DNA of 64,000 nt from Candidatus Poribacteria bacterium (GTDB taxonomy: Bacteria > Poribacteria > WGA-4E > PCPOR2b): NCBI GenBank assembly GCA_965208675.1, contig OZ242351.1:2400001-2464000 (forward strand). The letters are read 5' to 3'. Numbering within the stretch: the first letter of the stretch is position 1; each line of letters starts with the position of its first letter. Positions 45,511-64,000 of the stretch are shown here, piece after piece. The position numbers were made by a program, and so were the translations under genes. The notes under the pieces were generated by a model that worked only from the letters and a program-made list of their open reading frames with translations, had not been told where the DNA came from and did not search any database.

Positions 45511-45599
45511 CAGCACTAGGTAACATAGGAAGGCTGATGATGGGAGTGCGAATCTGAATGCGTGAGGTCTCCGATTGGGCTTACTTGCTTTTTTGAACA

Positions 45600-45890
45600 T
45601 TTATCACGATGTTTTCATTTAGCGCTTGCTCAAAATCCTCCATGGCTTTCAATGCTAAAGCCGTTTAGCGACTAACGTGCACGTTCTTATCTGCTGATTC
45701 CTGAATCAATGCCGGCACTGCTGCTTCGCCAATTTAGATGAGGGATTCAGCCGCGCTGTCTCGGACATCCGCAGCCGTATGTTCAAGTTTCTGAATTTAT
45801 GATGCGATGTCCTTACCTTGAGCATGAGATACAATGCTCGCCACGCGCCGAATATAGACATATAAGTACACCCCGATTGTGCTTGTTCAT
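45600..45890 (-). pseudogene. Degraded HEAT-repeat secreted protein remnant
   Basis: AAAGGAG RBS and ATG 45890; after a frameshift ...IAS*IQKLE...DVRDSAAESLI*IGEAAVPALIQ. Confidence 0.6.
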
Positions 45891-45909
45891 TGTTATTGAA
45901 CTCCTTTAA

Positions 45910-46983
45910 CTAGAGCGGGGCTGCTCTAGTTGTAAAGGGAAAATTATAGAGTAACTGTTGTCCTACCCTGTCTTCTGCGTCTATCTTAACATCATATTTT
46001 GTTGAATAATCTAATTGCTCAATTCCGACAAACTTCCAAGTAGCAATACCAGAGCAGCCTTTGATTGTTTCATTGTGAATACGAGCGGGACTAAGTGTTA
46101 TTGCAGGGGTAATCTCACAGAAGGCTTCTGCCATTGGTCTGTCAAAAACAACGTGAATTATTCGTGTGTTTTCTGGGTCAACGTCTCGCCCTATTGGGTA
46201 ATGTTCAACGATTCGCGGCGCGGTGATGTCAAAATCCGGCATCCAATACCAACCTACAAAAGAAAGTGGCTGCACATTATAATTTACGTTTAGAAAATCA
46301 CTTATGACTAATGATCCCACATTGATTAGGTTATCTGTGTCGTCGGGTTCAAGAAATCCAAATTGTCGCCGGCATTGATTCCATGTAATGACATCAGTCG
46401 GTTCTGTTTCTTGCAGTTGAATCCGCTAGTTACCAAACAAAATACGGCCAGAGTTTGGGATAATTGGTTCATTGAAGGTGATACGAAACTCTTGCGTAAG
46501 GGCGTCTAGTTCGACCGGTCTCGAGCGCTGAACGCTTGGCTTTGGATAGACTGCTATCACACGCGGGGAGTTACTCTGTAAATCTAAGGTTACTTTAAGC
46601 GTGTCTTTATGGATGCCGGCTTCATCTTCGTAGATTACCATTAAAACCACTTCCCTGTCAGGACTCCTCTCTATTTGAAGATTCCACACGTCTTCTAAGC
46701 GGTTGCTGTCTAGTTTCCAAACCGTTGCCGGCGGTTCTCCACTGGGTCGGGCTTTAGTAGAATGATTGATGTTCACCGCCAGAACAGGCTTATCAAAGTA
46801 AAGTTCAATTATTGTAGAAGTCTTAATTATGCCACTACCATGTAGTGGCAGCCAGTAGTGCTTGAACGTACCCTGATCAAAACCAAGGGCATCTATCAGC
46901 CGTGCAGGTTGCAATTCCTCTTCCGCGGAGCAGCTCATGAGCAGACAAAATACACAAAAGAGCGTTAAACTTTTCAACAGCAT
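45910..46983 (-). pseudogene. Ig-like modular lipoprotein (modules A+B+C) with a single in-frame TAG (46426-46428)
   Basis: LMSC lipobox; ...GRILFGN*RIQLQETEPTDVITWNQC... in frame with ORF 45910-46320; colinear with 47813-48892. Confidence 0.85.
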
Positions 46984-46995
46984 GTCAAAATTCCT

Positions 46996-47793
46996 TTAAT
47001 CCGCCGTTTGGAATGTAATCACAAGAGGAGCATCCCTCTTTGTACCCCCAGCGCTATAAAGAGCCAATAGGTGGATTTCGTATTCACGCCCCGGCAATAA
47101 CCTAGCACCTTTACTTTCGGGCAACAGGATCGCCGTCTCGATTCTATCTGTCCAATACACTTTCCAATTAAGTTTCCATCGACCACTGTAAACTTCTATC
47201 CGGGTTCGGTGAGGATCTATCCGATTGCTGAAGCTAATCCTTATCCCTTCTTGGTTTAATTGATTGGCGTCGGCGTCAATCTGATTATTCGATACATTCG
47301 AGGAATCAATCGTTGGTGGTTCTGGGCCTAGCTCGTAATTGCCTAACGCGACTTTAAACGTTTCTTGATGCAAACCGGTTTTATCTTCATAGATTACCGT
47401 AAAAGGCACATTCTTTTTGGGAGTGCGGAAATAGGGTAAAGATGGCAGATTGAGTTCGCCAACTTTTACTATCCAAATCGTCGTCGGCGGTATGCCGTTA
47501 GGTCTTGCGTAACCAAGCACGTTATCCACATCAATAATCACCTGCGACACAGCTTTGTCAAACACAAGTTCTGCCCAATCTTGAAGCGCAAGTACCTCAT
47601 CCCCCTTGCCGTCGGGAAAATGCCAATCTCTAGTGTCTTGATAGTGATTGTCACTGGTGACTTTCATTAACCGCGCAGGTTGTATTTCAGGCATTACTTG
47701 TATGCCCTCATCTGAACAGCTTAGGAACAAAAACAGCACACAACATGGCATGGTGATTTTCAGTAACAACTCAAAAAACCTTGCGAATTTCAT
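46996..47793 (-). CDS. Modular lipoprotein (modules A+D, Ig-like)
   Basis: FLSC lipobox; QPARL...ELVFDK.V...IYED..G.H.ET; DAN.LN.EGI.I.F...W...WT...AILLPES...LPG.EYE. Confidence 0.8.
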   Translation of the reverse strand: MKFARFFELLLKITMPCCVLFLFLSCSDEGIQVMPEIQPARLMKVTSDNHYQDTRDWHFPDGKGDEVLALQDWAELVFDKAVSQVIIDVDNVLGYARPNGIPPTTIWIVKVGELNLPSLPYFRTPKKNVPFTVIYEDKTGLHQETFKVALGNYELGPEPPTIDSSNVSNNQIDADANQLNQEGIRISFSNRIDPHRTRIEVYSGRWKLNWKVYWTDRIETAILLPESKGARLLPGREYEIHLLALYSAGGTKRDAPLVITFQTAD

Positions 47794-47812
47794 TGTTTTT
47801 TCCCTCCTTTAG

Positions 47813-48892
47813 CTAGAACGGGGCTGCTCTAGTTGTAAAGGAATAATCGAATGCAGACGTACCGGCGAAATCTTCTACTTCAATTTTAACATCATATTTT
47901 GTAGAGTAATTTAACTGCTCAGTGCCGACAAATTCCCAAATAACAACACCAGTGCAGCTTTTGATGCTATCATTTTCAATATGAGCCGGACTCAATGTTA
48001 TTGCGGGGGCAATTTGACAAATCGCTGAGTACACTGACCTGTTGAATACCACGCGAATAAACCGTGTGGTTTCCGGGTCAACGTCCTGTCCTATTGGGTA
48101 GTATTCAAAGACTTTTGCAGGGCCAGGGTCAAAATTTGGCATTCTATACCACCCGACATAAGGGCGAGGCTGGACATCTCCATTTACATTCTGAAAATCA
48201 CGAATGGCCATTGAACCAATATTGTCCAGAAAAAATGGTCGGTAGCATTGATTCCATGTAATGGTATCAGTCGCTTCGGTCTCTTGTAGTTGAATAGTCG
48301 CAATATAAGGACTAGTGCCAAACAGGATACGACCTGAGTTTGGTATGATTGGCTCGTTGAAGGTGATACGAAATTCTTGCCTTGGAACTTCTCGATAGGT
48401 TATGTCAACCGCTTCAGTGCGTTGAGCACCGGGAGGGGGATCGACTGCTATCACACGAGGGGAGTCACTCTGTAAATCTAAGGTAACGTCTAGCGTGTCT
48501 TTATGGATGCCGGTTTCATCTTCGTAAATTATCATCAAGGTCACTTTCTTGTTTCGGCGATTCCACACGCCCTCTAAGCGATTGCTTTCCAGTCTCCAAA
48601 TCGTCGGCGGCGGCATTTCATCGGGTTGGGCTTTAGCCGAATAATTGATGCTTACCTCCAGAACAGGTTTATCAAAGACAAGCTCAATTATTGTAGTAGT
48701 CCCAATTATGCCAGGAAGCGGAAAGGAATCCTGTGGCGTATCTCTGTCATAGCCACGGGCTTCTATCAACCGCGCTGGCTGCAATTCCTCCTCCGTTGAG
48801 CAACCGATGAGCGAACACAAGCAAAGTAAGAGCGTTGTGGCATTTAGCTGGCTTATATCCCCCAAACCACCGATATATCGTGAATTAGCCAA
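47813..48892 (-). CDS. Modular lipoprotein (modules A+B+C, Ig-like); start uncertain
   Basis: LIGC lipobox; module A, QEFRITFNEPIIPNSGRI (B) and YPIGQDVDP...FTTRAAP (C). Confidence 0.8.
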   Translation of the reverse strand: MANSRYIGGLGDISQLNATTLLLCLCSLIGCSTEEELQPARLIEARGYDRDTPQDSFPLPGIIGTTTIIELVFDKPVLEVSINYSAKAQPDEMPPPTIWRLESNRLEGVWNRRNKKVTLMIIYEDETGIHKDTLDVTLDLQSDSPRVIAVDPPPGAQRTEAVDITYREVPRQEFRITFNEPIIPNSGRILFGTSPYIATIQLQETEATDTITWNQCYRPFFLDNIGSMAIRDFQNVNGDVQPRPYVGWYRMPNFDPGPAKVFEYYPIGQDVDPETTRFIRVVFNRSVYSAICQIAPAITLSPAHIENDSIKSCTGVVIWEFVGTEQLNYSTKYDVKIEVEDFAGTSAFDYSFTTRAAPF

Positions 48893-49494
48893 GAATTATC
48901 CTCTCTAATAAGTAAGACGTAATAACCTGCTCCCGATAAGAGATTGGTACTATTTCCAACGTAAACAAGCGCTTGAGTTCCCCCGGTATCAAAACCGATT
49001 CTCGAAAACTGCATAACCCCTTGAGCACCAGGAAATTTATCATAATAGCGATTCCAGCTATCGTTTATGCTGTCTATTAACTGGTCAATTTCTACATCAT
49101 TGCGAGGAAAGCATTCCCGAAGCTCTTGTTGCCCAAGGATTTTACACGGGACGCTGAGCGCAAGTTGTGCGCAATCAAGTGTTACAGATTGGCGATTGCG
49201 GCTTTCAACACTATTGAATGTCTCTGGAAACACGTTGATGTCGCGCGGTTTATAGAAGTCGGCATCAATAATCAAACTGGAATCAAACACTGTATCGCTT
49301 TCAATGACAATGAGTTTAATATCATCGCGAACATACATGTATTCTATCAATGCTCGGTAGACCGCGTACTCTGTCTCGCTTGTTATTACAAAGGGTTCAC
49401 CGCTGTCATCTGAACAACTTGCTAACGCCAGATAGAACACGAATAACGCGATAGACGACTTTCGAATGATGTAAGTCAGTTGCTGTATCCTCAC
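48853..49494 (-). CDS. Lipoprotein, family F paralog
   Basis: LASC lipobox; ETEYAVYRALIE, PGAQG.MQ.S.IGFDT.G.QALVYVGN and GAG.Y. Confidence 0.8.
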   Translation of the reverse strand: MRIQQLTYIIRKSSIALFVFYLALASCSDDSGEPFVITSETEYAVYRALIEYMYVRDDIKLIVIESDTVFDSSLIIDADFYKPRDINVFPETFNSVESRNRQSVTLDCAQLALSVPCKILGQQELRECFPRNDVEIDQLIDSINDSWNRYYDKFPGAQGVMQFSRIGFDTGGTQALVYVGNSTNLLSGAGYYVLLIREDNSWLIHDISVVWGI

Positions 49495-49508
49495 GTTTCT
49501 CCTTTAAC

Positions 49509-50141
49509 TCATGAAATCCAAAGCTCTGATATGTCGCGGATGACCCAAGTATTATCATCCTTTCTAACTAGCACGATGTAAAATCCTGCACCCGCTGTGT
49601 CAAAAGCTTGGTTGCCCACGTAGACGAGAGCTTGGCGTCCTTCGGTATCGAATCCGATTTTCGAAAGTTGCATAATCCCTTGTGCGCCGGGATAAATTTC
49701 ATAGAAGAGTAACCATTGGGACATCGGAGTCTCAAATTCTCTGTCGCCACGAGAGAAAAATTGTTGAACGTCTTGTCGATCAAGGATTTTACACGGGACG
49801 CTGAGCGCTAGTTTTGTGCAATCGAGCGTTTCAGATTGGCGGTTTCGGTTCTGAAAACTGTTGAATGTATTTAGCGAAACCACAAGATCTAGTGGTTTAT
49901 CCGATGTATTATAAAAGACTGCGCGTGCAGCGGTGTATGGGCGCAATTCAAAATCCAACACGGTTTTACTTTCAATGACAATCAGTTTAATGTCATTGTC
50001 AACGTACAGACCTTCAATCAACGCTCGGTAAACTGCGTACTCGGTCTCGGTAGTAATCATGAAGGGTTCGTCATAGTCTTCCGAGCAATTTGCGAACGCA
50101 AGAACGGCTATAAGAAACAGAAAATTCAACAGTATTTTCAT
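49509..50141 (-). CDS. Lipoprotein, family F paralog
   Basis: FANC lipobox-like motif; closely similar to 48853-49494. Confidence 0.8.
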   Translation of the reverse strand: MKILLNFLFLIAVLAFANCSEDYDEPFMITTETEYAVYRALIEGLYVDNDIKLIVIESKTVLDFELRPYTAARAVFYNTSDKPLDLVVSLNTFNSFQNRNRQSETLDCTKLALSVPCKILDRQDVQQFFSRGDREFETPMSQWLLFYEIYPGAQGIMQLSKIGFDTEGRQALVYVGNQAFDTAGAGFYIVLVRKDDNTWVIRDISELWIS

Positions 50142-50190
50142 CTTTCCTCCATGATATTAGAGATGGGTTTCCGCTGTCCATCACCGCATT

Positions 50191-50961
50191 TTACTGGTTT
50201 GCGGTCCAAAATCGAATCACAAAAGCCCCTTCTGCCGCCCCTCGTCCAAGTCCTGTCATATCATAATGGGAAAGCAGACGGACTTCATAGGGGCGCCCCG
50301 GTAAGAGCCGGTCATCTTCACTTTTAGGAAACAGGATAGCTGTCTCATAATCCTCTGTCCAATTGATTTCCCAACGCAGTATCATTCGACCGCTGTAAAC
50401 GACAATTCGGGTTCGTTGGGTGTCCATCGTCCTGTCGAATCCAATCTTAATCCCTTCTCTGTTCAAGCGCGCGGCGTCCACATTGACCTCACCCACCTGT
50501 GGATCGCCAGATATTATCGCAGAGGGGAACACGTCAACACTGTAAGCCGCTAACGTTACATCTAGCTTTTCTGAATGGACGCCGGCCTCATCTTCGTAAT
50601 TTATGGTCAAAATTACGCTTGCATTGAACCCTGTTTTGCCATCCCACACGTCTAATCGACTGCTGTCCAGCGTCCAAACCGCTGCGGGTGGGGTTTCATC
50701 GGATTCAGCGTTGACGCTATTGATGCTTACGCGACGCACAGGTTCATCAAAAGTAAGCTCGATTATCGAGGAGAACCAAATCGCACCACGACCATTTTCG
50801 TGAAACGGATAAGATCTCAAGGAATCCACATCAAAGGCACGGGCGTTTACCAGATGCGCTGGTTGCTTGTCCTGATCCGCAGAGCAGCCAATGAGCAAAG
50901 ACAGAAAGCAAAAAATCGCCGTACTACCCATCAGGATATCGCCATTTCTTGTGAATTTCAT
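50191..50961 (-). CDS. Modular lipoprotein (modules A+D)
   Basis: LIGC lipobox; paralog of 46996-47793 and 51011-51802; AAGGAGG RBS. Confidence 0.8.
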   Translation of the reverse strand: MKFTRNGDILMGSTAIFCFLSLLIGCSADQDKQPAHLVNARAFDVDSLRSYPFHENGRGAIWFSSIIELTFDEPVRRVSINSVNAESDETPPAAVWTLDSSRLDVWDGKTGFNASVILTINYEDEAGVHSEKLDVTLAAYSVDVFPSAIISGDPQVGEVNVDAARLNREGIKIGFDRTMDTQRTRIVVYSGRMILRWEINWTEDYETAILFPKSEDDRLLPGRPYEVRLLSHYDMTGLGRGAAEGAFVIRFWTANQ

Positions 50962-51010
50962 CGTGTTTGACCTCCTTTAACACTCTCCCAAGTTGCTGCA
51001 CGACCGGTAA

Positions 51011-51802
51011 CTAGCTCGCCATCCTAAATTTGATTACGACAGGCACGTTTCCCCTTGCGCCCCCAGAGCTATAAAATTCTACCAGATAGATTTCATATTC
51101 ATGACCCGGTAGAAACCAATCATCTTCACTTTCAGGCAACAATATAGCCATCCTATTATCCTCCGTCCATTTGATTTCCCAATTCAGTATCACTTGACCG
51201 TTGTACGCGAAAACGACAATTCGGGTTCGTTGGGTATCCATTGTCTTGTCGAAACCAATCTTTATCCCTTCTCTGTTCAGCTTATTGGCATCTAGATCGA
51301 TTCTAGTCTCTGGATTTACAGATTTAATCTCTGGAGGCGGCTTCTCAATACTGTAAGCTCCAATCCTCACATCGATCGTTTCTGTATGGACGCCATCTTC
51401 ATCTTCGTAGTCTATCACCAAGGTCACATTGCGTGACGGATTCCACCCTATTTGGCGTTTCCACACGTTCAGTTGGGCGGTGTCCAGCGTCCAAACAAAC
51501 GCAGGCGACAATCCATCGGATTCAGCGTTGACACTATTGATGCTCACTTGATGAACGGGTTTATCAAAGAGAAGCTCTATCATCATGAAATACCAAAGTA
51601 CGCCACGGCGGTTTAGTGGAAGCGAAGAGGAATGCCCCGTATTCCTATCATACGCACGGGCTCTAATAAGCTCGGCTGGTATAATATCTTCAGTCTCATC
51701 ATTCGTTGGAGCCGTTGAGCAGGCCATGAGCAAACACAGCCCATAAACCAGCATTAAACCTTTCAACAGCATTGAGTCAAACCTTGTTACCTTCATTGTC
51801 AC
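51011..51802 (-). CDS. Modular lipoprotein (modules A+D)
   Basis: LMAC lipobox; LNREGIKIGFD.TMDTQRTRIVV shared with 50191-50961. Confidence 0.8.
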   Translation of the reverse strand: MTMKVTRFDSMLLKGLMLVYGLCLLMACSTAPTNDETEDIIPAELIRARAYDRNTGHSSSLPLNRRGVLWYFMMIELLFDKPVHQVSINSVNAESDGLSPAFVWTLDTAQLNVWKRQIGWNPSRNVTLVIDYEDEDGVHTETIDVRIGAYSIEKPPPEIKSVNPETRIDLDANKLNREGIKIGFDKTMDTQRTRIVVFAYNGQVILNWEIKWTEDNRMAILLPESEDDWFLPGHEYEIYLVEFYSSGGARGNVPVVIKFRMAS

Positions 51803-52252
51803 CCTTTAATGCCGTCCATACCGGTTGCACTATTTGAGAGTTGAGAATCATCATTTCAGCTCATTTACGTATGTTTTCATCGGTTATTGTGACAATCAAA
51901 TCATCGGTCGAAATGTGGTCAAGCGCAATGAGGGCTTGAAGCGCTGATTCACGTATGGATTCATCGTCGTCAGACAATAGCTCCTTAATTATTGGAATCG
52001 CACCGTCTACCTTAACATTCTTTATATAGCCATCCAATCCAATTACCAAAGAGCTGTTGTCTGACGACGATGAATTCATACCAAATTTTGCGATGGTAGA
52101 AAGAACGCGATTTTGAACATAATGATGTTCAGACCGAAGCAGTGCGGATATTGCGGGCGGATTTATGTGTGACAGCCTGGAAATAATGTTGCCATGAAAC
52201 GTCGAATCAAAATTGATTTCATCTGGATACCATGTTGTTTCTAACACCTTTA

Positions 52253-53139
52253 GAGCCTGTTTGAAAAGTCATTTGATTCGATTTTGCATTAAGTAAATGG
52301 AAGCGATGTACACCATAGTCTCAGCAGTCCTAGGATAGCGTTCATAATCCAAAGTCAATCGACGAAACCAACCAAGCCAAGAAAATGTGCGCTCAACAAT
52401 CCATCGTAACGGGATAACTTCAAACTTCTCCCGTCCTAGCGTAGATGCAATCTCCAGTTGACATTGATGAGCAAAATATAACCAGTCTTCCAATTCTCCA
52501 CGATAGGCGGCATCGGCACACACCAACTGAATGGTTATGTACCAGCTAAACACTTCTGTTAGTAACTCGATAGCAATCTGATTATCACTGACATTCGCGT
52601 CAGTGACTTTGACCATCAATGGAATACCCGTCGTATCCGTTACTAGATGTCGTTTGCGTCCTTTGACCTTCTTGTGACCATCAAAACCGCGAGTCGTCGC
52701 CAGTTCAGTTGTCTTAATGGATTGGCTGTCAATGATAGCTGCTGTCGGTGATGGTTCTTTGCCACCATCACAGCGTGATTGTTCGTGAAGTGCCTGATGA
52801 ATCAAGAGCCATGTATTGTCGGCTTCCCACTTCCTAAAATGGTAATAGACGGTTTGCCACGGTGGCATATCGTATGGTAGCATTCGCCACTGGCAACCGG
52901 ACTTGACGACATAAAAGATGGCATGGACAATTAAGTACATCTCCCATTTTAGAGGTCTACCTAATGGTTGAGGGGTTGGCAGAAACGCTGACAGTTTCTG
53001 CCATTGTACATCGGTCAAATCACTAGGATAACGTTTTCGGTTCATGTTTACTCCCTTCATTGGTTCGGAATCAACTGCTCCAGTGAGTAAACGTAAACAT
53101 CAACCGTTCAGACATCTTTTTTCTTTTTCAAACAGGCTC
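52253..53139 (-). mobile_element. IS5-family insertion sequence (IS1031-like group), 887 bp
   Basis: Terminal inverted repeats GAGCCTGTTTGAAAA at both ends; 3-bp TTA target duplication (52250-52252 and 53140-53142). Confidence 0.95.
52269..53045 (-). CDS. IS5-family DDE transposase
   Basis: YPSDLTD.QW, GCQWRMLP.D.PPWQTVYYHF, IDSQS.K, GFDGHKKVKGRKRH, ADAAY and RWIVERTFSWL..FRRL. Confidence 0.96.
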   Translation of the reverse strand: MNRKRYPSDLTDVQWQKLSAFLPTPQPLGRPLKWEMYLIVHAIFYVVKSGCQWRMLPYDMPPWQTVYYHFRKWEADNTWLLIHQALHEQSRCDGGKEPSPTAAIIDSQSIKTTELATTRGFDGHKKVKGRKRHLVTDTTGIPLMVKVTDANVSDNQIAIELLTEVFSWYITIQLVCADAAYRGELEDWLYFAHQCQLEIASTLGREKFEVIPLRWIVERTFSWLGWFRRLTLDYERYPRTAETMVYIASIYLMQNRIK

Positions 53140-55055
53140 TTACCAAAATTGGAGTAATCTCATCGACAAGTGATGCTCCCTCCGCCAACCCGGCTAATGC
53201 GGAGAGGGCCGTATGCCGTGTATGAAAATGCGGAGAAGCCAATGCCTCAGTCAGAATCGGAATGGTCGCTTTGTCGTGCCCCGAACCCATCCATGCCAAT
53301 GCGATTGCCGCATGTTGCCGCACTCCTGCGTCCGTTGCGTTCATAGCCTCCGCTAATAACGGCACTGCGGCAGCACCAATTGACTGAAGACACCACGCCA
53401 CTCGAACGTGAAAGTTGCTCAAGCCTTCCATACAGGACAGAACGTCTCCTCCACGCTGGAAATGCCCGGTCGCAAAGTTCGGCGTGTTAAGTGTTGCAAT
53501 CAGTTTATCGGCAATTTCCAGTTTTTTCTTCAGAGTCAGGATTGAGGAAGTAATTACCGCATCTAATGTTAAAACCGCCGTAGGTCGGGCAACCCGATTA
53601 TTGACCGTATCGTCCGTCGATTCTAACACCTGCACTAAGGCTTGTAGCACCGGATTAACGAGCCGAGGCCGATCCGCCAAGTCTACGAATCTGTAGGTAG
53701 CAAACTTCCGCGTAACGCTGTAAGGCGAAGCCAATGCCTGAGTCAGAATCGGAATGGTTGCATCGTCGTGTTCCGACCCAATCTCCGCCAATGCTATAGC
53801 TGCATGATGGCGCACTCCTGCGTCGGTTGCGTTCATAGCCTCCACTAACAATGGCACCGCGGCAGCACCAATTGACTGAAGACACTCCGCGACTCGAACG
53901 TGAAAGTTACCATCGCGACGATGACCAGGGATGTCAAAGTTTGGCGCGTTTAGCATATCAATCAGTTTGTTGGCAATTTCAAGTTGAACCTCCGGAATCG
54001 CCATCGCAATGTCTCCCAATACGTCAACCACAGCGGTTTGCACATCGTGGCTGTCGTCGGTCAATCTCATCAGCGTCTTGAGAAATTCAGGCTGAACTGC
54101 TGGAATTCCCGCTGCAATCTCCCCTAATGTGGAAACGGTAGTGGCACGGACTTTTTGATTCTCATCGTTCAACGCATTGATTAACCCCGGAACGGCGGCT
54201 TCGGCATGGGACGGGATAATCCCTAATAGACGGGACGCAGTTTCACGGACTTCCGCCACCGAGTCGTTGAATGACTCTGCGATTAGGGTGGCGGTGCCGG
54301 GAAGCGGTTTTATATTAGCGTTCCTCAGTTTATGGGCAATCCGCTCAATCATATACCGCGTCAGTATGGATTCATCTTTGTTGTCGCTTTTCAACAAAGG
54401 CAGCAAGCCGCCCAAAGCCTTATCAAGGTCAATTAAACGAAAAACCGCATCTTCAATTTGACGCCAAGATTCGCTTATCCCACCGCCGCTCAACAACCTC
54501 AAGACTTTTGCCCAAGCGAGGAGTATCTGATCATGGCTCACATTCGTGTCTTTAATGGCTGCGGCTGCATCTTGCTTCACTTGCGGATTTTCGTCACCGA
54601 GCTGAAGGATTAAACTATCCAGACCTAGGGCGGATTCATCTCTGTTGTCGCTTTTCAAGGTATCTAGCACGCCAGCCGAAGTCTTATCAATGTCAATTAA
54701 ACCAAAAACTGCATCTGTCGTTCGTACCCAATGATCGGTGTTGTCTTCAAGCATCCGGCTCCGACTTAATAACAGCGAGAGCTTTGCCCATGCGAGCAGT
54801 ATCTTATCATCAGTCACGTTCATCTTTTTAATATTCGCGGCGGCATCTTGCCGAACCTGTGGACGTTCATGACCGAGTTCGATGATAGAGATTTCCAGAG
54901 ATTCACTCATGCCCTTGAAAGGACTAGTTACTAAAGAAGTGTTGTGGGCGGCGGCTCTCGAACAGATGATGATACCGATTAAAAAGAACAAGCGTCTATA
55001 ATTTTGCATTTTGACCGCCTTTCATGTCATTGGGTTGCGTTCGATGCAGTACGGG

Positions 55056-55943: not shown

Positions 55944-56023
55944 TTTTGTTGCCCTCAGATTATTGTTAAAGGCGAATATGTCCTAGTCCTTTGTTGATGG
56001 AATCCGTGAGCTCCCCTCGTCCT

Positions 56024-56908
56024 CTAAAACCGCACATTGACCAATCGTACCAAGTAGTCCATTTCGAGGCGATGATAAGGTAATTGTGAACTCTGTATCG
56101 CTATTGTCGGTGGTAGGAGTGTGCGCATTCTGCCGCCCGATGAGGTATTAGACAGCTTCGCTGGTTTTGAATGTTGATAGCCGATAGTGCCGCCGATAGG
56201 CGTCAATATTGACCATTTTAAGGTCTCCTTAAAAGAGCCGCCGCCGCTGCCATATAACTCTCCTATCGCATAGGCGCTTACAGCGGAAAGAAATATTCCG
56301 CCTATCGCGCCTCCATAAAATGATGCGGGCGGGAAAGGCTCCCCATCTTCAGTGAAAATAGAACTAACAGTGCCGCCTATACCTATTCCCCAATTGTAGC
56401 CTGTGATCAGCCCCAAAATCCCAACGTTCACTTGACCAGCCATGACGAGCAGCCCATCCCTTTGACGCCGATCTTGAGGCAAATCTGTTTCGGCAAATTG
56501 GTTCTTTGACCGTTGATAGGCAATGGTGGCACCGATAGGCGTCAACGGCGCCCATCGTAAGGTCTGCTTAAAAGAGCCGCCGCCGCTGCCGAAGGTTTCT
56601 CCAATCAGATAGACGGTCGCAGCACTCGAAACGTATGCGCCCGCCAGTCCGCCGAACGCGACTTTAGGAGAGACGTGAATGACCTAAGAAGAACTATAAA
56701 ACTCATCGCCGAATAACAGGTTCTCAGCATAAAGTAAAGAAACTATACAAGCCAGGAAGCCCGCGGACTCACCGACAAAACCAGCCCCCACTTGACCCGC
56801 GATGACGAATGGGCCGTCGCGTTGACTCAAGTCTGTTTCGGCGAATAGCCCTTGCTTGATAAAGAGCGAAAAGCAACAGATAAGCACAAGCCGCTTTTGC
56901 GTATTCAT
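56024..56908 (-). pseudogene. Gly-rich membrane protein with an internal tandem duplication and a single in-frame TAG (56684-56686)
   Basis: Two copies of FAETDL..RDG..V.AGQV...IGE..GSGGGSFK.TL.W..LTPIG.TI.YQ.SK; both ORF pieces are in one frame across the TAG. Confidence 0.75.
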
Positions 56909-56944
56909 TGTTTTTCAAAGGATCCGGATTGTTCAACAATTGAA

Positions 56945-57832
56945 TCAAAACGGCCACCAGCGACGTTTTTCAAACTCCTTGACGGCGTCCAATGCTTCAG
57001 GCGTGCCAATGTCCTTTAATGCGCGGGCGGCGCGTAAACGTGCCCAAGCCGTTCGAGAACCCAACCGTTGAATATAATAGGCAACCACGGCGTCCAATGC
57101 TTCAGGCGTGCCGATGTCCTGTAATGCTGCAGTGGCATGATGACGTTCCTTATAAGCCTCTGGATCGTTCAAAATTTGAATCAAAACGGGAACCAGAAAC
57201 TCATCATCCGCTAATGCCACTAACGGTCACACTGCCCGTCTTTCAATTAGCTCCTCTATCACGATGCCGCGCATAGAAGGGTCGATTTTGACAATTGCCA
57301 ACCCTGCGCCGTTCCTAACATACCGCAGATACCGCTTATCATCACTACGAAAAAGCTCTGTCAAGGCAGGTATGGCTTCCGCGGCGTCAGGCCCCATTTT
57401 TCCCAATGACATTAACGCCGTCCAGTGAACGCTAGGCCATTCATCATTGAGTACTGATGTTCGTCCCGTATTTTCATCCCGCAATGTTTCTATCAGTGCG
57501 GGGATGGCTGAGACGGCAGGCGGTTCTATACTACCTAACACGTCTGCGGCAGCTTCTCGAACATAGGCATATTCATCAAACAAAGCGTGCGTCAAGGCGG
57601 GAATGACTTTATCGCGCTCTTGTTGAGCCTTGCTCGCCAACAGGTAGACTGCCTTTTCTCGTAAGTTATAAAATCGATTGTTTTTGAGTTGAGTTATCAG
57701 GAAATCTACATCCTTATCCGACCAATCCGGATTGTGACACCCCATCGGGTAACACCCCATCACAGTTAAACAGCTGATGAGAAGCATGAACACATGGATG
57801 GAAAAAAAACGACGCCCATTCCTTTTGTCCAT
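56945..57832 (-). pseudogene. HEAT-repeat lipoprotein with an in-frame TGA (57227-57229)
   Basis: VMGC lipobox; ...IERRAV*PLVALADDEF... joins 57227-57832 and 56945-57220 in frame; repeated AL.DIGTPEALDAV. Confidence 0.75.
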
Positions 57833-57864
57833 TGGTATCCTCTAACTCGCCGTAGGGTATTTCC

Positions 57865-58443
57865 TCACTGCTCCTTTGGTTGCCGTTCAATCACAATGGG
57901 GTTATACTGTGATTCAGGCAGATAATCCTCAATAGCGTATTCTAACCGCACTGGAGTCCCGGACGAATCGGGACGGAGAATAAATCGCATAGCTAGTGAT
58001 GGATGGCCGTCAACACCGTAAAGATATACCTTGTACACCCGATTCACTTCCAACGGTTTGGCGGGCACCAATTCTTTGTAACCGGGCGGCACCGCCCCAT
58101 ACTGTATACAGTGCAATGGATGGCTCGCCCGTTTCTCTGTCGGTCGATACTGCATTCGCCAGAAACACTTGTCATGACCCCGCCAAGGGGTTTTGACGCC
58201 CAAATCCTGTTGATTGTGTTTCTCCGATTCCCAAAAACGAAATACAGCGATTTCACCAATATACAGGGGATCCGCAATTTGATGCAGATGTTCGGATTTT
58301 TCAGATTTATCATGTAAACAGAACGTGGGGCGGGAAACCTCCGAGTAGGGCGGCACCGTTGTCCAACTTAGTAATCCGTTGCCGCAACCACTCAAGATTG
58401 CCGCTCCAGTTATTAAGCAGAAAATCAAAACAAGCCGTCTCAT
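57865..58443 (-). CDS. Lipoprotein, family E paralog
   Basis: AAGGAG RBS; LSGC lipobox; I.YG.VPPGYKE..PA.PL and RF..R.D..GTPV.LEY. Confidence 0.8.
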   Translation of the reverse strand: MRRLVLIFCLITGAAILSGCGNGLLSWTTVPPYSEVSRPTFCLHDKSEKSEHLHQIADPLYIGEIAVFRFWESEKHNQQDLGVKTPWRGHDKCFWRMQYRPTEKRASHPLHCIQYGAVPPGYKELVPAKPLEVNRVYKVYLYGVDGHPSLAMRFILRPDSSGTPVRLEYAIEDYLPESQYNPIVIERQPKEQ

Positions 58444-58453
58444 AATTCTCCTT

Positions 58454-58996
58454 TTAATCACGATCACGATGGAGGAAGTGCCTTGAAAAGACGTATTCCA
58501 ATTTCACGGGTGTCCCGTTCTCGTCCGACCGGATAACAAAACGAATCGGACGTGATGGATAAGTATAGCTCATCCCCGAAACGTCAGCGACATAGATTTT
58601 TTCAGGTATCAAGGGCAAAGCGGGATGTTCCTCCTTGTACCCCGGCGGTACTGTTCCGTACTCGATGGTGGTTACAGGACTCGCCGTGTGTGCCGAGGAA
58701 TCAGGCTTATATTCAATAAACCAATCTATCACATCCTTGCTTCGTCCGGGTGGAAGTTCTGAATACCCCGTATCGAGATAAACTTTAATGCGTCGGATAT
58801 GGTCTAGATCGTCGGTGTCACTTGCTGTATCTTTATAGTCACTGTTGTGTTTGTAAACGCAAAATACTGGGGTTGTCACTGGTGTTTCCAGTGCTGGATG
58901 CAAGCCATACACCCCGCTAGAACCCCCGTATGACACACAGCTACTCTGAAAACAACAACCAATACTGACAGCAAGCACCACAATGAAGCGTATCAT
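58454..58996 (-). CDS. Lipoprotein, family E paralog
   Basis: AGGAGG RBS; signal peptide with Cys; same motifs as 57865-58443. Confidence 0.8.
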   Translation of the reverse strand: MIRFIVVLAVSIGCCFQSSCVSYGGSSGVYGLHPALETPVTTPVFCVYKHNSDYKDTASDTDDLDHIRRIKVYLDTGYSELPPGRSKDVIDWFIEYKPDSSAHTASPVTTIEYGTVPPGYKEEHPALPLIPEKIYVADVSGMSYTYPSRPIRFVIRSDENGTPVKLEYVFSRHFLHRDRD

Positions 58997-59143
58997 TTGG
59001 AAAGCCTCCTCTAAGGTTGAGTATCCGAGCTATTCAATTCATCATGCCATTGTTTGAACTCATCTAGGAGAAATTGATAATGCTCTCTCATCTCATCGGT
59101 CACTTTTTGACTGCCGTAATTGAAAATTTTAGCTGTCTAAAAT

Positions 59144-59944
59144 CTAATCACTAGCAGGTGCGGCTCTAGTTGTAAAGGAAAAATCAACAACTCCGAGATT
59201 CCCCATATCATCGGTTATTGCTATGCTGACACTATATTTTGTTGCATAATTTAATTCCTGCATGTAGCCAAACTCCCAAGTAGCGATACCAGTACAGGCT
59301 CGCATACTTTCATTGTCAATACGCAGAGCAGCAACTTTTATCGGGGGACTGATCTCAAAAGATGTTGAGCCTCGCATGGCCTGTATGGGGCGGTCAAATA
59401 CAACTCGCACCCCGCGTGTGGTTTTTGGGTCAACATCTTGCCCAATTGGGTGATATTCAAGGACTATCGGCGCAGCGATGTCAAATGGTGCTATCCGAAA
59501 CCATCCTACATAAGGATGGGCCTGGACATCGCCATTGACGTTCTGGAAATCACGAATGACAATCGAACTTATATTGTCGTCCGGTGCAACATACGCAAAT
59601 GTTCGAAAGCATTGATTCCATGTAATGGTATCGGTCGCTTCGGTCTCTTGAAGTTGATAAGGTGTGACGCCAAACACAATACGACCTGAATTTGGTATGA
59701 TTGGCTGGCTGAAACTGATACGAAATTCTTGCGTAGCGGTGTTCAGTTCAGCGGGTGCAGAGTGCTGAGCGCCGGGTTTTGGGCTGAATGCTATCACCCG
59801 CGGGGGATTCATCGGTTGTTCTGGTCGTATGCTATCATCCGTTGGCTCTGATGAGCAGCCAATGACCAAAAACCACCCTAAAACAAGACAAACTATAAGA
59901 AACGGCAAAATGATTTGTAGTTTCATATTTTCCACCATACGCAA
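59144..59944 (-). CDS. Modular lipoprotein (modules B+C); candidate cognate immunity protein of the Rhs tip
   Basis: VIGC lipobox; QEFRISF..PIIPNSGRI, QLQETEATDTITWNQC, YHPIGQDVDP and FTTRAAP; first gene downstream of Rhs. Confidence 0.8.
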   Translation of the reverse strand: MRMVENMKLQIILPFLIVCLVLGWFLVIGCSSEPTDDSIRPEQPMNPPRVIAFSPKPGAQHSAPAELNTATQEFRISFSQPIIPNSGRIVFGVTPYQLQETEATDTITWNQCFRTFAYVAPDDNISSIVIRDFQNVNGDVQAHPYVGWFRIAPFDIAAPIVLEYHPIGQDVDPKTTRGVRVVFDRPIQAMRGSTSFEISPPIKVAALRIDNESMRACTGIATWEFGYMQELNYATKYSVSIAITDDMGNLGVVDFSFTTRAAPASD

Positions 59945-59955
59945 TTACGTTTAGG

Positions 59956-62900
59956 TTACTGAATTTTTATACTGCCCCACGTAACTAGATTATACTGAGT
60001 AATCAGAGGTTGAAACCAAGATAAAGCTGAGTGTGCGTCTTGAACACTTATAACTTGCCTGCGATACTCCTCAAACCTCATATCCATACGTAAATCAACC
60101 ACCGTTCTTCCCCAAGAAAGTTGCCAGGCGATATGGAAGTAGGACTGGGTTGCCGAAGCATGTTGTTCCATGCCTAAGTTCAGGGTCGTTAATTCATGCC
60201 TATTGAACGCATAAAACGATTTGTCCGGAGGCGGATCTCGCCAAGGTGAACGTCCGCGAAAACGATTGTACTTCCGCTGCCACGCATGAGTTACTTCGTG
60301 AATCAAAATACCCAATGCGTTTGTGACATCGGCGGTAAGTGAACCGTTGCTACCAAAAGCATCGGATGTTGTCGATCCTGCATTGAGACCGGCATAGAAG
60401 TCCGGATTAACTGCGATTCTGTGCTTACCGTCTCGAAATTCTAGATACTTTCCTCTTACGGGCTTTCCTCGACTGTCAAAAAGAGGCTTTATAGTTATAT
60501 CCAACTCATCCGCAGATATGGATCCGTTAAATACCATATCCACAGCATACGACTCCAATGCACTTAGGGCTCTCAACCCCGTCGGGTCGATAAACGCCAA
60601 CGGATTGTTATTCGCATAGGCATACCAGTTGATGCCATCTCCGGCGGGATCTCGCTGATTAAACCTGCCAGTGTAGGGGTCATAGCCGACGGGACGCCCG
60701 GGGAAATGGTATAATTTTACATCACTTTCATACTCTTTACCCGTGAACTTGCGCGCGTTGTCGGTCGTGCCGACTTCAGAGCGCACTGCGCCGAACACGT
60801 CGTACTCATACCGCACAAGCACATTCTTGTTATCGTCCGTTAAGACGATGTTGCTGCCCAAAGCGTTGGGGTGGTGGTATTCATAGCGTCCCATCTGATT
60901 GTTTGACAACTTAGTTATCTCAGCGTCGCTTAGCGCAGCGTCGTAGATGGATACATCGTCGAGATAACCGTTGAGGTGGTGGTTAGTCGCATCATAAAAT
61001 CCCATCCACAACGCCTTGGTCGTTGCCGCCAACGACGCTGTTGATGCCGTTGAAGCCGTGTCTTTGGTGCCGCCGATAAAGACGCGGAGTTCGCTGCCGT
61101 CATACCGAGCCGCCACATGCTTCCATGTGTTTAAGGGGATGGTCGTTGCACTGGTGACGGTCTTGGTTGTCCCGCTGAACAGCACCTCGAACTGAACCGC
61201 GCCGGTGCTAGTTATCCAGAGCCGATACCCGTTAGAGGCGTTTGCCTTTTTGACCAGATTCCCGCTCGCCACAGTGGACCGCTTCACCCAACAACTGATG
61301 GTTAGTGTATTGCCAACAAGGTCTAAGGCATCACTGTCTGCGACTTTTACGACATCGTTAGTGCCGTCAAAAAGGAGGCTACCCCCGTTTTCAGTGCTCC
61401 AAGCAGGCTTTTTGTTTTCAGTGCCGCCGCCCAGCGTGCCGTTCTGGCTGCCGTCAACGTCATGCGCCACAGTGCCGGTGCCTTCATCAAAGTGCCAATG
61501 CGCAACGGCATTGTGTTTCCGGCGATATACAACGCCGTTGCCGCCATAGAGATAGCTGGCCGTGATGTTCTTGCTTGAATCCAATTCTAGCACCGGCATC
61601 AAGCCGTCGTAAAGAAAATACCTTGTGCCCTGGCTGTCCGAGACTTTCACCCGTTTGCCCCCGCCGTCGTAGGCGTATGTGAGCGTCTGTGTCACCGTGT
61701 TGTTTCGGGTCTTCTGAATCTGTTTCAACTGCGAACCGAATCCGTAGGTAAATGCGTCCGAATCCGTGCCTTCGCTCCGTTGCGTCAGCTTCCCTTCAGC
61801 ATCGTAGGTGTAATTCATCGTCGAGAAGTCGGTATCTTCAGGCACTAGTGAACGGTAGGTCAATTGGTTGCTGTTGGTGGCAACCGTGTAGGTCGTCGTG
61901 CCATCAACGCTGCTCACCTGTGTGAGCCGGTTGCCGGACTTGTCGTAGGTGTAGCTGACGGTCTCGTTCCCGTAGTTGGCGCTAGTCAAGCGTGAGATAT
62001 TATCGTAACCGAATGTGAACGTCTTGCTTGACCCGCCGGCGCCGGTATCGTCTCTCACCAACTGCGTCACATTCGATTTGTCGTCGTAGGTGTAGGTTAA
62101 GGAACTGAGCGTAGTGGAAGCGTCCTTCTTGTACGTCAGCGTGCTTAAGCGGTTGACGTTATCAAGCGTTCGATGCGCGGTGATGCCGTTTGGAACCGTG
62201 ACTTTCTTCAACGCCCCGATGTCGAAGTAACCGTAGCTTTCGGTCTTGTTAGCAAGCACGTCCTTAACCGTCAGCAGCCGGTTGGCTTCGTCGTAGGTAT
62301 ACTGGACATCGTATAACTTTGTGGTTGTGCTGCCGGTAGTTGGATTGACGTACATGCGCGTCCGCATCGAAGAATCGTCGTATTCGTAGACGGTCTTATA
62401 ACCCAAGAGCGAATCGGTGCGGTTCTTGATGCGGTTGAGTTGGTCGTGCGTGAAGGTATAGGTGTAAGTATTCGCGCCGTCGTTGGTCTTTTGGGTAAGC
62501 ACGTTGTCGCCCAAGTCGTAGGTGTAGTCTACGACCTCGCCCGTCTTGTAGCTGACTTTCGAGAGGCGGTTGAGGTTGTCGTAGGTATTGCTGACGGCGG
62601 GGCTGGTTTCAGTGCCGGTTTGGCTCGTCCACGCCTTCGTAACCTGATTCAGGGTATTGTAGCGCGTCTCCACCCAATCGCCGTCGGGCAAGGTCTGCTT
62701 AGTCACTCTGCCGAGTTCATCGACGGTATAGTTGGTTATCAAGCCGCGGGGGTCTTTGGTCTGGGAAATGTCGCCGGCAATGTTGTAGACCGTTTCGGCT
62801 GTAGCGTATGGAGTCGTCCAGTTATCCTTGAAGCTGTGGGCTTTGACGGCGCGGTTCATGGCGTCGTATTCGGTTTTGGTCTGGGCTATTAGCGTGCCGG

Positions 62901-64000
62901 TCTGCCAGTTGTTCTTGCGGACTTGGGTCTGGGTGACGTTGCCGTTCTTGTCGTAGGTTGGGATGGTGTGCATGTTATCGGCAACGCGCCGGGTGTATTT
63001 TAGCTTTCTATCTTTCCAGTAGGCGTATTCGGTGCGTCTGCCCTGCGCGTCAATGTCTGCCGTTTTCAACCCGCGGTTGACATCCCACTCGGATTTGGTC
63101 TTGATGATATGGTCTGCACCGTTTACTGTGACGGTGGTCTTGACCTCGATTGGATACGTGTGATGGGTCGCATCATAGACAGTCTCCACAACCTTCTCTT
63201 GCGTTGTCCCCGGCATGAAGGTGGTCTTGGTTCGGTTGCCGTAGGAGTCGTAGGTGTGCTTGGTGATGATGTCGTGGTCGACGGCGTGGGGCTGTGTGCC
63301 GGTATTGGCTTTGCTGCGCTGCTCGGTGAGATTTCCCTTCGAGTCGTAGGTGAACGTCGTCTTATGCCCCATCGGGTCTATCTGCCAGAGGGGGCGGTTA
63401 AACTTTGTCTCGTAGTCCGCCGTCCATTTGCGGAAAACAGAGCCATTCGTGGTATCTATCTGTTCCCAATTCGTGGCGTTGCCCATCTGACTGTTGTGGG
63501 TGGCATTTGTGCCCGCATAGTAGATTTTGTACAGAAAATCCAGGCTGGAAGAAGCACCGCCATGTTGCGATCTAATAAGATTTCTATTGGAGTATACCCA
63601 ACGCGAATCGGCATAAGACGCCCGCGGCATTTTCACACCTTTTACATATATCCAGCGTCTGCTTCCCAAACCGTGGTGTTTAGCAATGACGGCGCTTGAG
63701 GTGACAGTATAGCCGGCGTAATGCCGGTCGCTTCCGCTTTCTATGGCATGACGGCGGTTGTTATGTCTACTAGTAATAAAATAGTACCGGCGATATACTA
63801 TGTCCCCGTGAATGCTGCCTGCCTTGGGAAGATTTCTGACGTACACAGTTGACACCTGGAGGTGCTTGAGTCCATAGTTATATAAATAGCTAATTGTGGT
63901 TCGAGAGCCCAACGGAGAGACGATTGCTGAGAGATAGCGATAGTTATTCTTGTAGTAGGTTTCGTATTCGTATTGAGTCTTTAACTCACTGCCGCGGGGG
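59956..64000 (-). CDS. Rhs/YD-repeat polymorphic toxin with an inserted LamG domain and an HExxH metallopeptidase-like C-terminal tip (5' end outside the window)
   Basis: YD repeats; core motifs YEYDVFG, FTGKE, YDP..GRF...DP and YA.NNP..FIDPTG; tip with IHEVTHAWQ and MEQHA. The frame stays open to the window edge. Confidence 0.93.
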   Translation of the reverse strand, partial: PRGSELKTQYEYETYYKNNYRYLSAIVSPLGSRTTISYLYNYGLKHLQVSTVYVRNLPKAGSIHGDIVYRRYYFITSRHNNRRHAIESGSDRHYAGYTVTSSAVIAKHHGLGSRRWIYVKGVKMPRASYADSRWVYSNRNLIRSQHGGASSSLDFLYKIYYAGTNATHNSQMGNATNWEQIDTTNGSVFRKWTADYETKFNRPLWQIDPMGHKTTFTYDSKGNLTEQRSKANTGTQPHAVDHDIITKHTYDSYGNRTKTTFMPGTTQEKVVETVYDATHHTYPIEVKTTVTVNGADHIIKTKSEWDVNRGLKTADIDAQGRRTEYAYWKDRKLKYTRRVADNMHTIPTYDKNGNVTQTQVRKNNWQTGTLIAQTKTEYDAMNRAVKAHSFKDNWTTPYATAETVYNIAGDISQTKDPRGLITNYTVDELGRVTKQTLPDGDWVETRYNTLNQVTKAWTSQTGTETSPAVSNTYDNLNRLSKVSYKTGEVVDYTYDLGDNVLTQKTNDGANTYTYTFTHDQLNRIKNRTDSLLGYKTVYEYDDSSMRTRMYVNPTTGSTTTKLYDVQYTYDEANRLLTVKDVLANKTESYGYFDIGALKKVTVPNGITAHRTLDNVNRLSTLTYKKDASTTLSSLTYTYDDKSNVTQLVRDDTGAGGSSKTFTFGYDNISRLTSANYGNETVSYTYDKSGNRLTQVSSVDGTTTYTVATNSNQLTYRSLVPEDTDFSTMNYTYDAEGKLTQRSEGTDSDAFTYGFGSQLKQIQKTRNNTVTQTLTYAYDGGGKRVKVSDSQGTRYFLYDGLMPVLELDSSKNITASYLYGGNGVVYRRKHNAVAHWHFDEGTGTVAHDVDGSQNGTLGGGTENKKPAWSTENGGSLLFDGTNDVVKVADSDALDLVGNTLTISCWVKRSTVASGNLVKKANASNGYRLWITSTGAVQFEVLFSGTTKTVTSATTIPLNTWKHVAARYDGSELRVFIGGTKDTASTASTASLAATTKALWMGFYDATNHHLNGYLDDVSIYDAALSDAEITKLSNNQMGRYEYHHPNALGSNIVLTDDNKNVLVRYEYDVFGAVRSEVGTTDNARKFTGKEYESDVKLYHFPGRPVGYDPYTGRFNQRDPAGDGINWYAYANNNPLAFIDPTGLRALSALESYAVDMVFNGSISADELDITIKPLFDSRGKPVRGKYLEFRDGKHRIAVNPDFYAGLNAGSTTSDAFGSNGSLTADVTNALGILIHEVTHAWQRKYNRFRGRSPWRDPPPDKSFYAFNRHELTTLNLGMEQHASATQSYFHIAWQLSWGRTVVDLRMDMRFEEYRRQVISVQDAHSALSWFQPLITQYNLVTWGSIKIQ

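What the first reader, a model, noticed from the sequence alone, without database searches (positions are those of the whole stretch)
45600..64000. Rhs metallopeptidase-type toxin followed by a 14-kb array of about 15 secreted/lipoprotein immunity-like genes: a candidate new polymorphic-toxin system
Seen: an Rhs protein ending DPTG-[tip with HEVTH...EQHA], then an unbroken co-oriented run of genes down to nusB, almost all with signal peptides or lipoboxes. They comprise six Ig-like modular lipoproteins, two pairs of novel lipoprotein paralogs, three HEAT-repeat genes, one SMI1/KNR4 protein and one Gly-rich membrane protein. Established: Rhs toxins autocleave at DPxG, are followed by cognate immunity genes, and SUKH (SMI1/KNR4) and HEAT proteins are known immunity classes. 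Inference: this is an extracytoplasmic toxin/poly-immunity locus whose defences are mostly surface or periplasmic lipoproteins of families I cannot assign. Unlike classical Rhs orphan arrays it has no intact orphan core+tip cassettes.
Basis: partly seen in the sequence, partly recalled or inferred. Interest (0 to 1): 0.85.

Follow-up and report, generated by a model that had tools for sequence, protein, structure and literature searches.

The report
Protease-tipped Rhs toxin with immunity array
In a Poribacteria genome (a group known as sponge symbionts), a large protein predicted to be secreted ends in a domain modelled as a zinc protease like a known antibacterial toxin, and is followed by 15 genes, mostly for predicted surface lipoproteins, that likely act as antidotes to its own tip and to the different tips of related strains.

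Summary
This is the 3' half of a Poribacteria Rhs locus. Its 206-aa tip resembles the P. aeruginosa VgrG2b-C/Tpe1 periplasmic metallopeptidase toxin: the tip profile hits only 6H56 (E 1.6e-13) and the model aligns at Z 10.3. All 5 Rhs tips in the genome, and 27 of 35 tips of at least 140 aa across 16 genomes, carry HExxH.

Tip clade predicts the next gene: P1 lipoprotein 11 of 11, HEAT-Big5 5 of 5, Ig lipoproteins for the window clade. So the array is likely one cognate plus orphan immunity genes.

Upstream lie a second full Rhs and a shell-less mini-Rhs (signal peptide, 38-aa core end, tip). No T6SS markers were found.

The toxin-plus-immunity-string layout and the peptidase family are known. 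New are the Rhs carrier with a Sec-type leader, the bias towards peptidase tips, several unnamed extracytoplasmic immunity families and the mini-Rhs. Toxicity and binding are untested.

The parts
59956..64000 (-). 3' part of Rhs1 (whole gene 1643 aa, G000:2459956-2464887, with an N-terminal Sec-type leader): YD shell, LamG insert, core end
60916..61368 (-). Laminin_G_3 domain inserted before the Rhs core end
   Evidence: E 3.2e-25
60577..60588 (-). DPTG, predicted autocleavage site
   Evidence: motif role from PMC8636562 passages
59956..60576 (-). 206-aa tip, predicted VgrG2b-C/Tpe1-like zinc peptidase (H93 E94 H97 E137), ending in a TWGxIK motif
59144..59944 (-). C-D two-Ig-domain lipoprotein (Big_5/CopC-like D domain); likely cognate immunity protein
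   Evidence: tip and this gene lie on one contig of another run (record 30)
58454..58996 (-). P1 lipoprotein, likely orphan immunity (its tip clade is not among the five G000 tips)
57865..58467 (-). P1 lipoprotein paralog, likely orphan immunity
56945..57832 (-). HEAT lipoprotein gene split by an in-frame TGA; intact homologs follow a non-HExxH tip clade in G002 and G017
56024..56908 (-). two-repeat Gly-rich membrane-protein gene with an in-frame TAG; a homolog follows an HExxH tip in G013
55056..55943 (-). SMI1/KNR4 (SUKH) protein; its leader resembles the A-B lipoprotein leader but lacks the Cys
53140..55009 (-). 5' piece of a HEAT gene with a signal-like leader; a 50% identical homolog follows an HExxH tip in G013
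52253..53139 (-). IS5-family element with transposase (52269-53060) and TAA target duplication
51861..52252 (-). 3' piece of the same HEAT gene
51011..51802 (-). A-B two-domain Ig-like lipoprotein
50191..50961 (-). A-B two-domain Ig-like lipoprotein
49509..50141 (-). P2 lipoprotein, no family match, cognate tip not identified
48853..49494 (-). P2 lipoprotein paralog
47813..48892 (-). A-C-D three-domain Ig-like lipoprotein
46996..47793 (-). A-B two-domain Ig-like lipoprotein
45910..46983 (-). A-C-D lipoprotein gene with an in-frame TAG at 46426-46428
45580..45890 (-). decayed remnant of a HEAT-Big5 gene (several stops)

Best explanation
This is likely an antibacterial Rhs polymorphic-toxin locus of Poribacteria whose tip is a predicted VgrG2b-C/Tpe1-like zinc peptidase, followed by one likely cognate and many likely orphan envelope-located immunity genes. 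SHOWN: the gene order; the HExxH+E motif; the profile and fold match to 6H56; the coupling of tip clade and next gene; exchange of tips between full-length and mini chassis; and decay of the array. INFERRED: the Rhs leaves by Sec and then crosses the outer membrane, perhaps with help from the adjacent secretin/PilM-like/PilO-like genes. It cuts itself at DPTG. The freed peptidase cleaves envelope proteins of neighbouring cells, by analogy with VgrG2b-C possibly lipoproteins. Because the peptidase acts outside the cytoplasm, the producer keeps its inhibitors there as lipoproteins or secreted HEAT proteins. Each tip swap inserts a new tip+immunity pair at the 5' end and pushes older immunity genes downstream, where they protect against relatives' tips until they decay.
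For: FOLD: the profile of 15 tips matches one of 177,635 PDB sequences, 6H56 (E 1.6e-13). The model (pLDDT 92) ranks 6H56 first (Z 10.3, rmsd 3.2, 138 aligned; next Z 7.1). The ligand spacing H93/E94/H97/E137 parallels H935/E936/H939/E983. VgrG2b-C is toxic in the periplasm and its immunity proteins are periplasmic, lipoprotein or membrane-anchored (PMC6899460 passages). PAIRING: P1-clade tips are followed by P1 in 11 of 11 cases with a next gene, including one genome of another family; 7 of these neighbours were not in the P1 profile. The HEFSH clade is followed by HEAT-Big5 in 5 of 5. The five Rhs-borne tips of the window clade are all followed by two-domain Ig lipoproteins. On a tree of 36 tips the label needs 2 changes against 16.7 shuffled. 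LINKAGE: domain A 14 of 15 and C-D 8 of 10 matches lie within 15 kb of an Rhs core. The same families form toxin-less mixed arrays in G010, G023, G018 and G007. POLYMORPHISM: the two full Rhs genes are 98% identical over 4302 nt with tips that share only the HExxH helix. Rhs cores are patchy: 1 of 3 same-genus genomes. EXPORT: TssC/VipB and VgrG were not found in G000 (96% complete).
Against: No activity, toxicity or binding was shown. The window tip alone does not hit 6H56 by phmmer, and Foldseek gave only E 0.024, TM 0.39-0.44. Ten of 46 P1 matches lie over 15 kb from any listed core or tip. The Big_5-type domain also occurs in two unlinked G000 lipoproteins. Sister peptidases sit in prophage-like regions beside opposite-strand Big_5 lipoproteins, and some lack HExxH. 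C-D directly follows a tip only in G000 among the GTDB genomes examined; the closest relatives are followed by A-B. No cognate tip was found for P2 or SMI1. Kin share labels, so the tree count overstates, and some family profiles were built from the neighbours they classify. PilM-like homologs flank an Rhs in only 4 of the 6 genomes that have them.
Confidence: 0.72

Rival explanations
1. The peptidase works on the sponge matrix or on the cell's own surface. The Rhs-LamG is an adhesin or presenter, and the Ig-like lipoproteins are adhesins or accessory surface proteins, not antidotes.
For: [quoted passage not shown]
Against: Unrelated folds (P1, HEAT, Gly-rich, SUKH) fill the same slot and each tracks a tip clade. 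Toxin-less mixed arrays exist. Presence is patchy within one genus.
Confidence: 0.12
2. The system mainly concerns phages: the peptidases are prophage cargo or virion-associated enzymes, and the lipoproteins block them or exclude superinfection; the Rhs locus borrowed the modules.
For: Standalone and PKD-fused peptidases of the same clades, with the same partner families, lie among portal, terminase and tail-like genes in G010, with similar blocks in G013, G014, G017, G018 and G023.
Against: In G000 the two tips of this family found by profile search are both on Rhs or mini-Rhs genes. The IMG/VR scan gave only 2 weak matches. The tip matches no PHROG. Prophage carriage of toxin-immunity pairs also fits the main reading.
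Confidence: 0.09
3. The locus is antibacterial as proposed, but the lipoproteins are decoy substrates that soak up a lipoprotein-cleaving peptidase, not tight inhibitors.
For: VgrG2b-C lowers membrane-bound lipoproteins in vitro; the array holds many divergent lipoprotein copies.
Against: Clade-specific pairing fits specific binding better; the VgrG2b immunity protein acts by forming a complex.
Confidence: 0.07

Closest known systems
VgrG2b C-terminal / Tpe1 metallopeptidase (DUF4157-like) with PA0261/Tpi1 immunity (PMC6899460)
   Same: Profile and fold match, HExxH plus a distal Glu, and a small gene downstream predicted to be envelope-located.
   Different: Carried on an Rhs or mini-Rhs with a Sec-type leader instead of VgrG, PAAR or cargo; no T6SS markers found; about 20% identity; several unrelated partner families; I did not compare them with PA0261.
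Rhs polymorphic toxins with Tox-MPTase/HopH1 tips and immunity strings (PMC3482391)
   Same: Constant Rhs body, variable tip, toxin-immunity order, a string of left-over immunity genes, SUKH and HEAT members.
   Different: That paper says nearly all immunity proteins it identified are cytoplasmic and lists no immunity for Tox-MPTase1-5. Here most are lipoproteins, and 27 of 35 tips are peptidase-like.
Salmonella Dublin SED_RS06335 (Rhs with an M91 tip, PMC13556075)
   Same: Rhs with an HExxH tip reported to be antibacterial; the window tip has a weak M91 match (19.6 bits, cut-off 25).
   Different: That protein has a PAAR motif and is a T6SS effector; the M91 match here is below cut-off.
Heterogeneous polyimmunity loci (PMC3482391)
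   Same: Tightly packed, co-oriented, unrelated immunity genes with no toxin cassette inside the 14-kb run.
   Different: Here the run is attached to a toxin gene; detached versions occur in relatives.

Membership tests
Rhs polymorphic toxin | YD-repeat shell and Rhs-associated core | tested here: met
   PF05593 E 2.6e-21; TIGR03696 over cut-off
Rhs polymorphic toxin | PxxxxDPxG boundary before the tip | tested here: met
   DP..DPTG in all 5 G000 genes
Rhs polymorphic toxin | Conserved body with variable tips | tested here: met
   two Rhs genes 98% identical over 4302 nt with different tips; 18 tip clusters among 39 tips
Rhs polymorphic toxin | Adjacent gene family coupled to tip type | tested here: met
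Rhs polymorphic toxin | Autocleavage, toxicity and neutralisation | not testable with these tools
   needs bench work
VgrG2b-C/Tpe1 metallopeptidases | Sequence and fold homology to 6H56 | tested here: met
   profile E 1.6e-13; Z 10.3; single-sequence search negative
VgrG2b-C/Tpe1 metallopeptidases | HExxH plus third Glu ligand | tested here: met
   H93 E94 H97 invariant and E137 at least 90% conserved in 66 sequences
VgrG2b-C/Tpe1 metallopeptidases | T6SS delivery | tested here: not met
   VipB and VgrG not found in G000, 96.4% complete; the Rhs starts with a Sec-type leader
VgrG2b-C/Tpe1 metallopeptidases | Immunity homologous to PA0261/Tpi1 | not tested
   no comparison made
eCIS_core (DUF4157), Peptidase_M91, Tox-MPTase | Pfam match over gathering cut-off | tested here: inconclusive
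   tips give sub-threshold matches only (M91 3 of 15, eCIS_core 3 of 15); 2 of 34 distant relatives pass eCIS_core; no Tox-MPTase model was listed (that Pfam holds such models is recalled)
SUKH immunity | SMI1_KNR4 domain | tested here: met
   38.9 bits over cut-off 25.4
Polyimmunity locus | Co-oriented unrelated immunity genes without toxin cassettes | tested here: inconclusive
   true of 45580-59944 apart from the IS, but the run is attached to a toxin gene and immunity is inferred

The most novel reading that the evidence does not exclude
One Poribacteria family competes mainly with exported envelope-cleaving peptidases instead of injected cytoplasmic toxins. The same tips move among full Rhs-LamG carriers, shell-less mini-Rhs proteins (signal peptide fused exactly at the YYxP start of the 38-aa core end) and prophages. 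They are countered by at least five unnamed families of surface inhibitors, among them Ig/Big_5-fold lipoproteins that would be a new class of metallopeptidase inhibitor.
Probability: 0.35. Interest if true: 0.8.

Novelty: new variant of a known kind. Interest (0 to 1): 0.62.

Why it matters
If true, it gives an uncultured group known as major sponge symbionts a concrete strain-against-strain weapon that needs no T6SS. It supplies candidate immunity families for Rhs metallopeptidase tips, for which PMC3482391 lists none. The tip-clade to partner-family map makes a cognate/non-cognate rescue matrix directly testable in E. coli. The mini-Rhs tests whether the 38-aa core end can process a toxin without the shell. 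Ig-fold lipoprotein inhibitors of zinc peptidases would interest protease specialists.

Tried and rejected
NOT AVAILABLE: complex prediction of the tip with 59144, so binding is neither supported nor contradicted; the ESM Atlas could not be reached.

SEARCHES THAT LED NOWHERE: phmmer of the window tip alone against the PDB gave no meaningful hit. The profile of the second tip group (A11) gave no PDB hit and shares only the HExxH helix with A3. NCBIfam named none of the lipoproteins. P2 occurs in 2 of 176 phylum genomes, the G002 match being a fragment at an Rhs locus. It has 55 database relatives without context, and its alignment was too variable for a locus scan. A DNA pattern for the mini-Rhs junction found 0 matches in JGI metagenomes. 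IMG/VR gave 2 weak tip matches, not followed. No RNA holder was listed. Earlier findings: nothing.

REJECTED: stop-codon recoding, because the stops are mixed TAG, TGA and TAA. Assembly error as the cause of the breaks is unlikely (though X1 may be the source data). Joints suggesting shuffled arrays in runs X6 and X8 were not used, because paralogs can mimic them at 88% likeness; the X1 joint 48820>60623 probably comes from the upstream mini-Rhs paralog. A CopC-like fold is not taken as copper binding.

LITERATURE: Poribacteria + polymorphic toxin gave 0 papers; Poribacteria + Rhs gave 2, on other organisms by their titles; searches listed nothing on mini-Rhs or the TWG motif by title or abstract start. 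Most subscription papers and the supplements of PMC3482391 were not seen and may already hold some of these families.
Full report
SETTING. The window is G000:2400001-2464000 of a single-contig 4.89-Mb genome, 96.4% complete. A same-genus genome is titled Candidatus Poribacteria. The best other holders of the locus are sponge metagenomes.

WHAT IS IN THE WINDOW. The Rhs frame ends in DPTG and a 206-aa tip with HEVTH and EQHA. Below it lie 15 co-oriented genes and one IS. They are six Ig-like lipoprotein genes built from modules A, B, C and D, two P1 and two P2 lipoproteins, two HEAT genes, a Gly-rich gene, a SUKH gene and a HEAT-Big5 remnant. Five of the 15 are broken. The IS5 element (52253-53139) splits one HEAT gene: both pieces align end to end to intact homologs, and the empty site is on contigs of two other runs.

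WHAT LIES OUTSIDE IT. The locus continues upstream: secretin, PilM-like, PilO-like, a 423-aa protein of no family, Rhs2 (1651 aa), HEAT-Big5, a mini-Rhs, two A-B lipoproteins, a transglutaminase-like gene, then Rhs1. Rhs1 and Rhs2 are 98% identical over 4302 nt, and both start with a Sec-type leader (leader judged from the sequence). A second locus at 3.078-3.085 Mb holds a transglutaminase-like gene, two mini-Rhs genes and three HEAT genes. All 5 core-end matches of the genome have HExxH tips. VipB and VgrG were not found; one T2SS-type ATPase lies elsewhere. Strong homologs of the 423-aa gene occur 6 times in 61 genomes, each just upstream of a full Rhs. The PilM-like gene flanks an Rhs in 4 of the 6 genomes that have it.

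THE TIP. Pfam gives only sub-threshold peptidase matches. A profile of 15 related tips matches a single PDB sequence, the VgrG2b effector domain 6H56 (E 1.6e-13), and 2398 database representatives at E up to 0.001. The AlphaFold model (pLDDT 92.1) ranks 6H56 first by Foldseek, weakly (E 0.024), and clearly by VIA-align (Z 10.3 against 7.1 next). The tip alone does not hit 6H56. PMC6899460 (passages and sections 9 and 10) describes VgrG2b-C as a gluzincin toxic in the periplasm, possibly cleaving lipoproteins, with envelope-located immunity. The Rhs2-type tips form a second group with no PDB match.

CENSUS. TIGR03696 matches 18 of 61 related genomes, and 1 of the 3 others in the genus. I extracted 39 tips from 16 genomes, of which 27 carry HExxH; among the 35 tips of at least 140 aa it is 27, against a background of 52 of 4095 windows. 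The pattern missed at least three more C-termini (G051, G030, G004), whose last 120 residues show no HExxH. The A3 profile matches 13 of 28 other genomes of the same family and few others strongly.

PAIRING. With orphan and prophage-borne tips added, 62 tips were classed. P1 clade: P1 next in 11 of 11 with a next gene; one contig-end fragment has none. HEFSH clade: HEAT-Big5 next in 5 of 5. A 17-member clade: a leucine-rich-repeat-like lipoprotein (label by eye) in 8, a second lipoprotein family in 2, another gene in 1, another tip in 3 and none in 3. Window clade on Rhs: A-B next in 4 and C-D in 1. A tree of 36 of the 52 A3-type tips needed 2 label changes against 16.7 shuffled; tips whose neighbour was absent, unclassed or another tip were dropped. 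Kin share labels and some profiles included the neighbours, so this shows clustering, not co-evolution. Homologs of the window's two HEAT genes and its Gly-rich gene directly follow other tip types in G002, G017 and G013. Those tip types are not among the five in G000, so these genes are best read as orphans.

Within 15 kb of an Rhs core lie 14 of 15 domain-A matches (7 of 8 outside G000) and 8 of 10 C-D matches. Of 46 P1 matches, 11 are near a core, 25 near a tip only and 10 near neither. Most sites away from Rhs are toxin-less mixed arrays of the same families, or tip arrays in prophage-like regions. The G020 pair and the G041 sites are unexplained. The C-D model is two Ig-like domains, with D closest to CopC (Z 12.5). 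The same Big_5-type domain ends the A-B and HEAT-Big5 proteins, and also two unlinked G000 lipoproteins.

MINI-RHS. Seven held sequences have a hydrophobic leader ending in xxA (LEA, IEA or AQA) fused exactly at YYxP of the core end: 3 in G000, 2 in G002, 1 in G007 and P0070. A region search returned 8 proteins, 6 with this build, one of them (P0244) apparently the G002 gene. One carries a tip close to the window's, and a core-bearing fragment carries a tip close to the G000 mini's, so tips move between chassis. The fixed junction argues for a selected form over decay (inference). The mini keeps both DP motifs but only about 38 residues of a plug of about 95 (PMC8636562 passages), so self-cleavage is uncertain.

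MECHANISM. Inferred: Sec export, outer-membrane passage by an unproven route, release at DPTG, proteolysis of a neighbour's envelope proteins, and neutralisation by the envelope-located product of the next gene. The downstream string would be left by earlier tip swaps, as described in PMC3482391 (passages and sections 17 and 41). Confidence 0.72. Rivals: host- or self-directed peptidase with adhesins (0.12), phage-centred role (0.09), decoy substrates (0.07).

VERDICT. It works like, and by the tested features is, an Rhs polymorphic-toxin locus. The tip is homologous to Tpe1/VgrG2b-C but fails the T6SS criterion. An Rhs with an antibacterial HExxH tip is in print (PMC13556075; abstract, introduction and part of the methods seen). 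PMC3909097 (passages) notes T9SS-like C-terminal domains in Poribacteria without a known apparatus. New variant of a known kind; interest 0.62.

Noticed in passing
window 59959-59988 and genome-wide: A C-terminal motif like KLxTTWGxIK ends 122 of 5247 ORFs of at least 120 aa, against 10 hits in 57,205 internal windows. Many carriers have signal-like leaders. It looks like a Poribacteria sorting signal and also ends 2 of 39 tips.
   Followed up: partly
L036:13059-13649, L043:6402-7022, L062:2396-3025: Other tips end in xNF/YPNP, resembling the start of a T9SS-type C-terminal domain (resemblance recalled, not tested).
   Followed up: no
L001:3893-4693; L002:4988-5827 and 8714-9541: Three mini-Rhs genes (signal peptide, 38-aa core end, HExxH tip) in this genome.
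   Followed up: partly
L001:1407-2252; L002:4119-4991: A transglutaminase-like gene with a signal-like leader directly precedes Rhs1 and the first mini-Rhs of the second locus; also in G002 (L035).
   Followed up: no
L001:10981-18383: Secretin, PilM-like, PilO-like and a 423-aa unknown gene upstream of the Rhs genes; a possible dedicated export module.
   Followed up: partly
L099-L104, L074, L079, L083: Prophage-like regions in G010, G017, G023 and G013 carry arrays of standalone or PKD-fused peptidases of the same family, some lacking HExxH, interleaved with opposite-strand single-domain Big_5-type lipoproteins or with P1 and LRR-like genes.
   Followed up: partly
L076, L077-L078, L085, L092: Toxin-less mixed arrays of the same immunity-like families, several at one site next to a hisF-like gene (label by eye).
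   Followed up: partly
window 55840-55943; L041:4274-5023: The SUKH gene carries an A-B-type leader, while an A-B gene in G013 starts like the SUKH genes; this suggests recombination at cassette 5' ends.
   Followed up: no
L052:10908-14899: In G051 a non-HExxH Rhs tip is followed by about five tandem paralogous 200-aa genes without leaders.
   Followed up: no
G000:C1:2078788-2088744: A 3318-aa ORF with many weak Ig-like repeats, unlinked to the Rhs loci.
   Followed up: no
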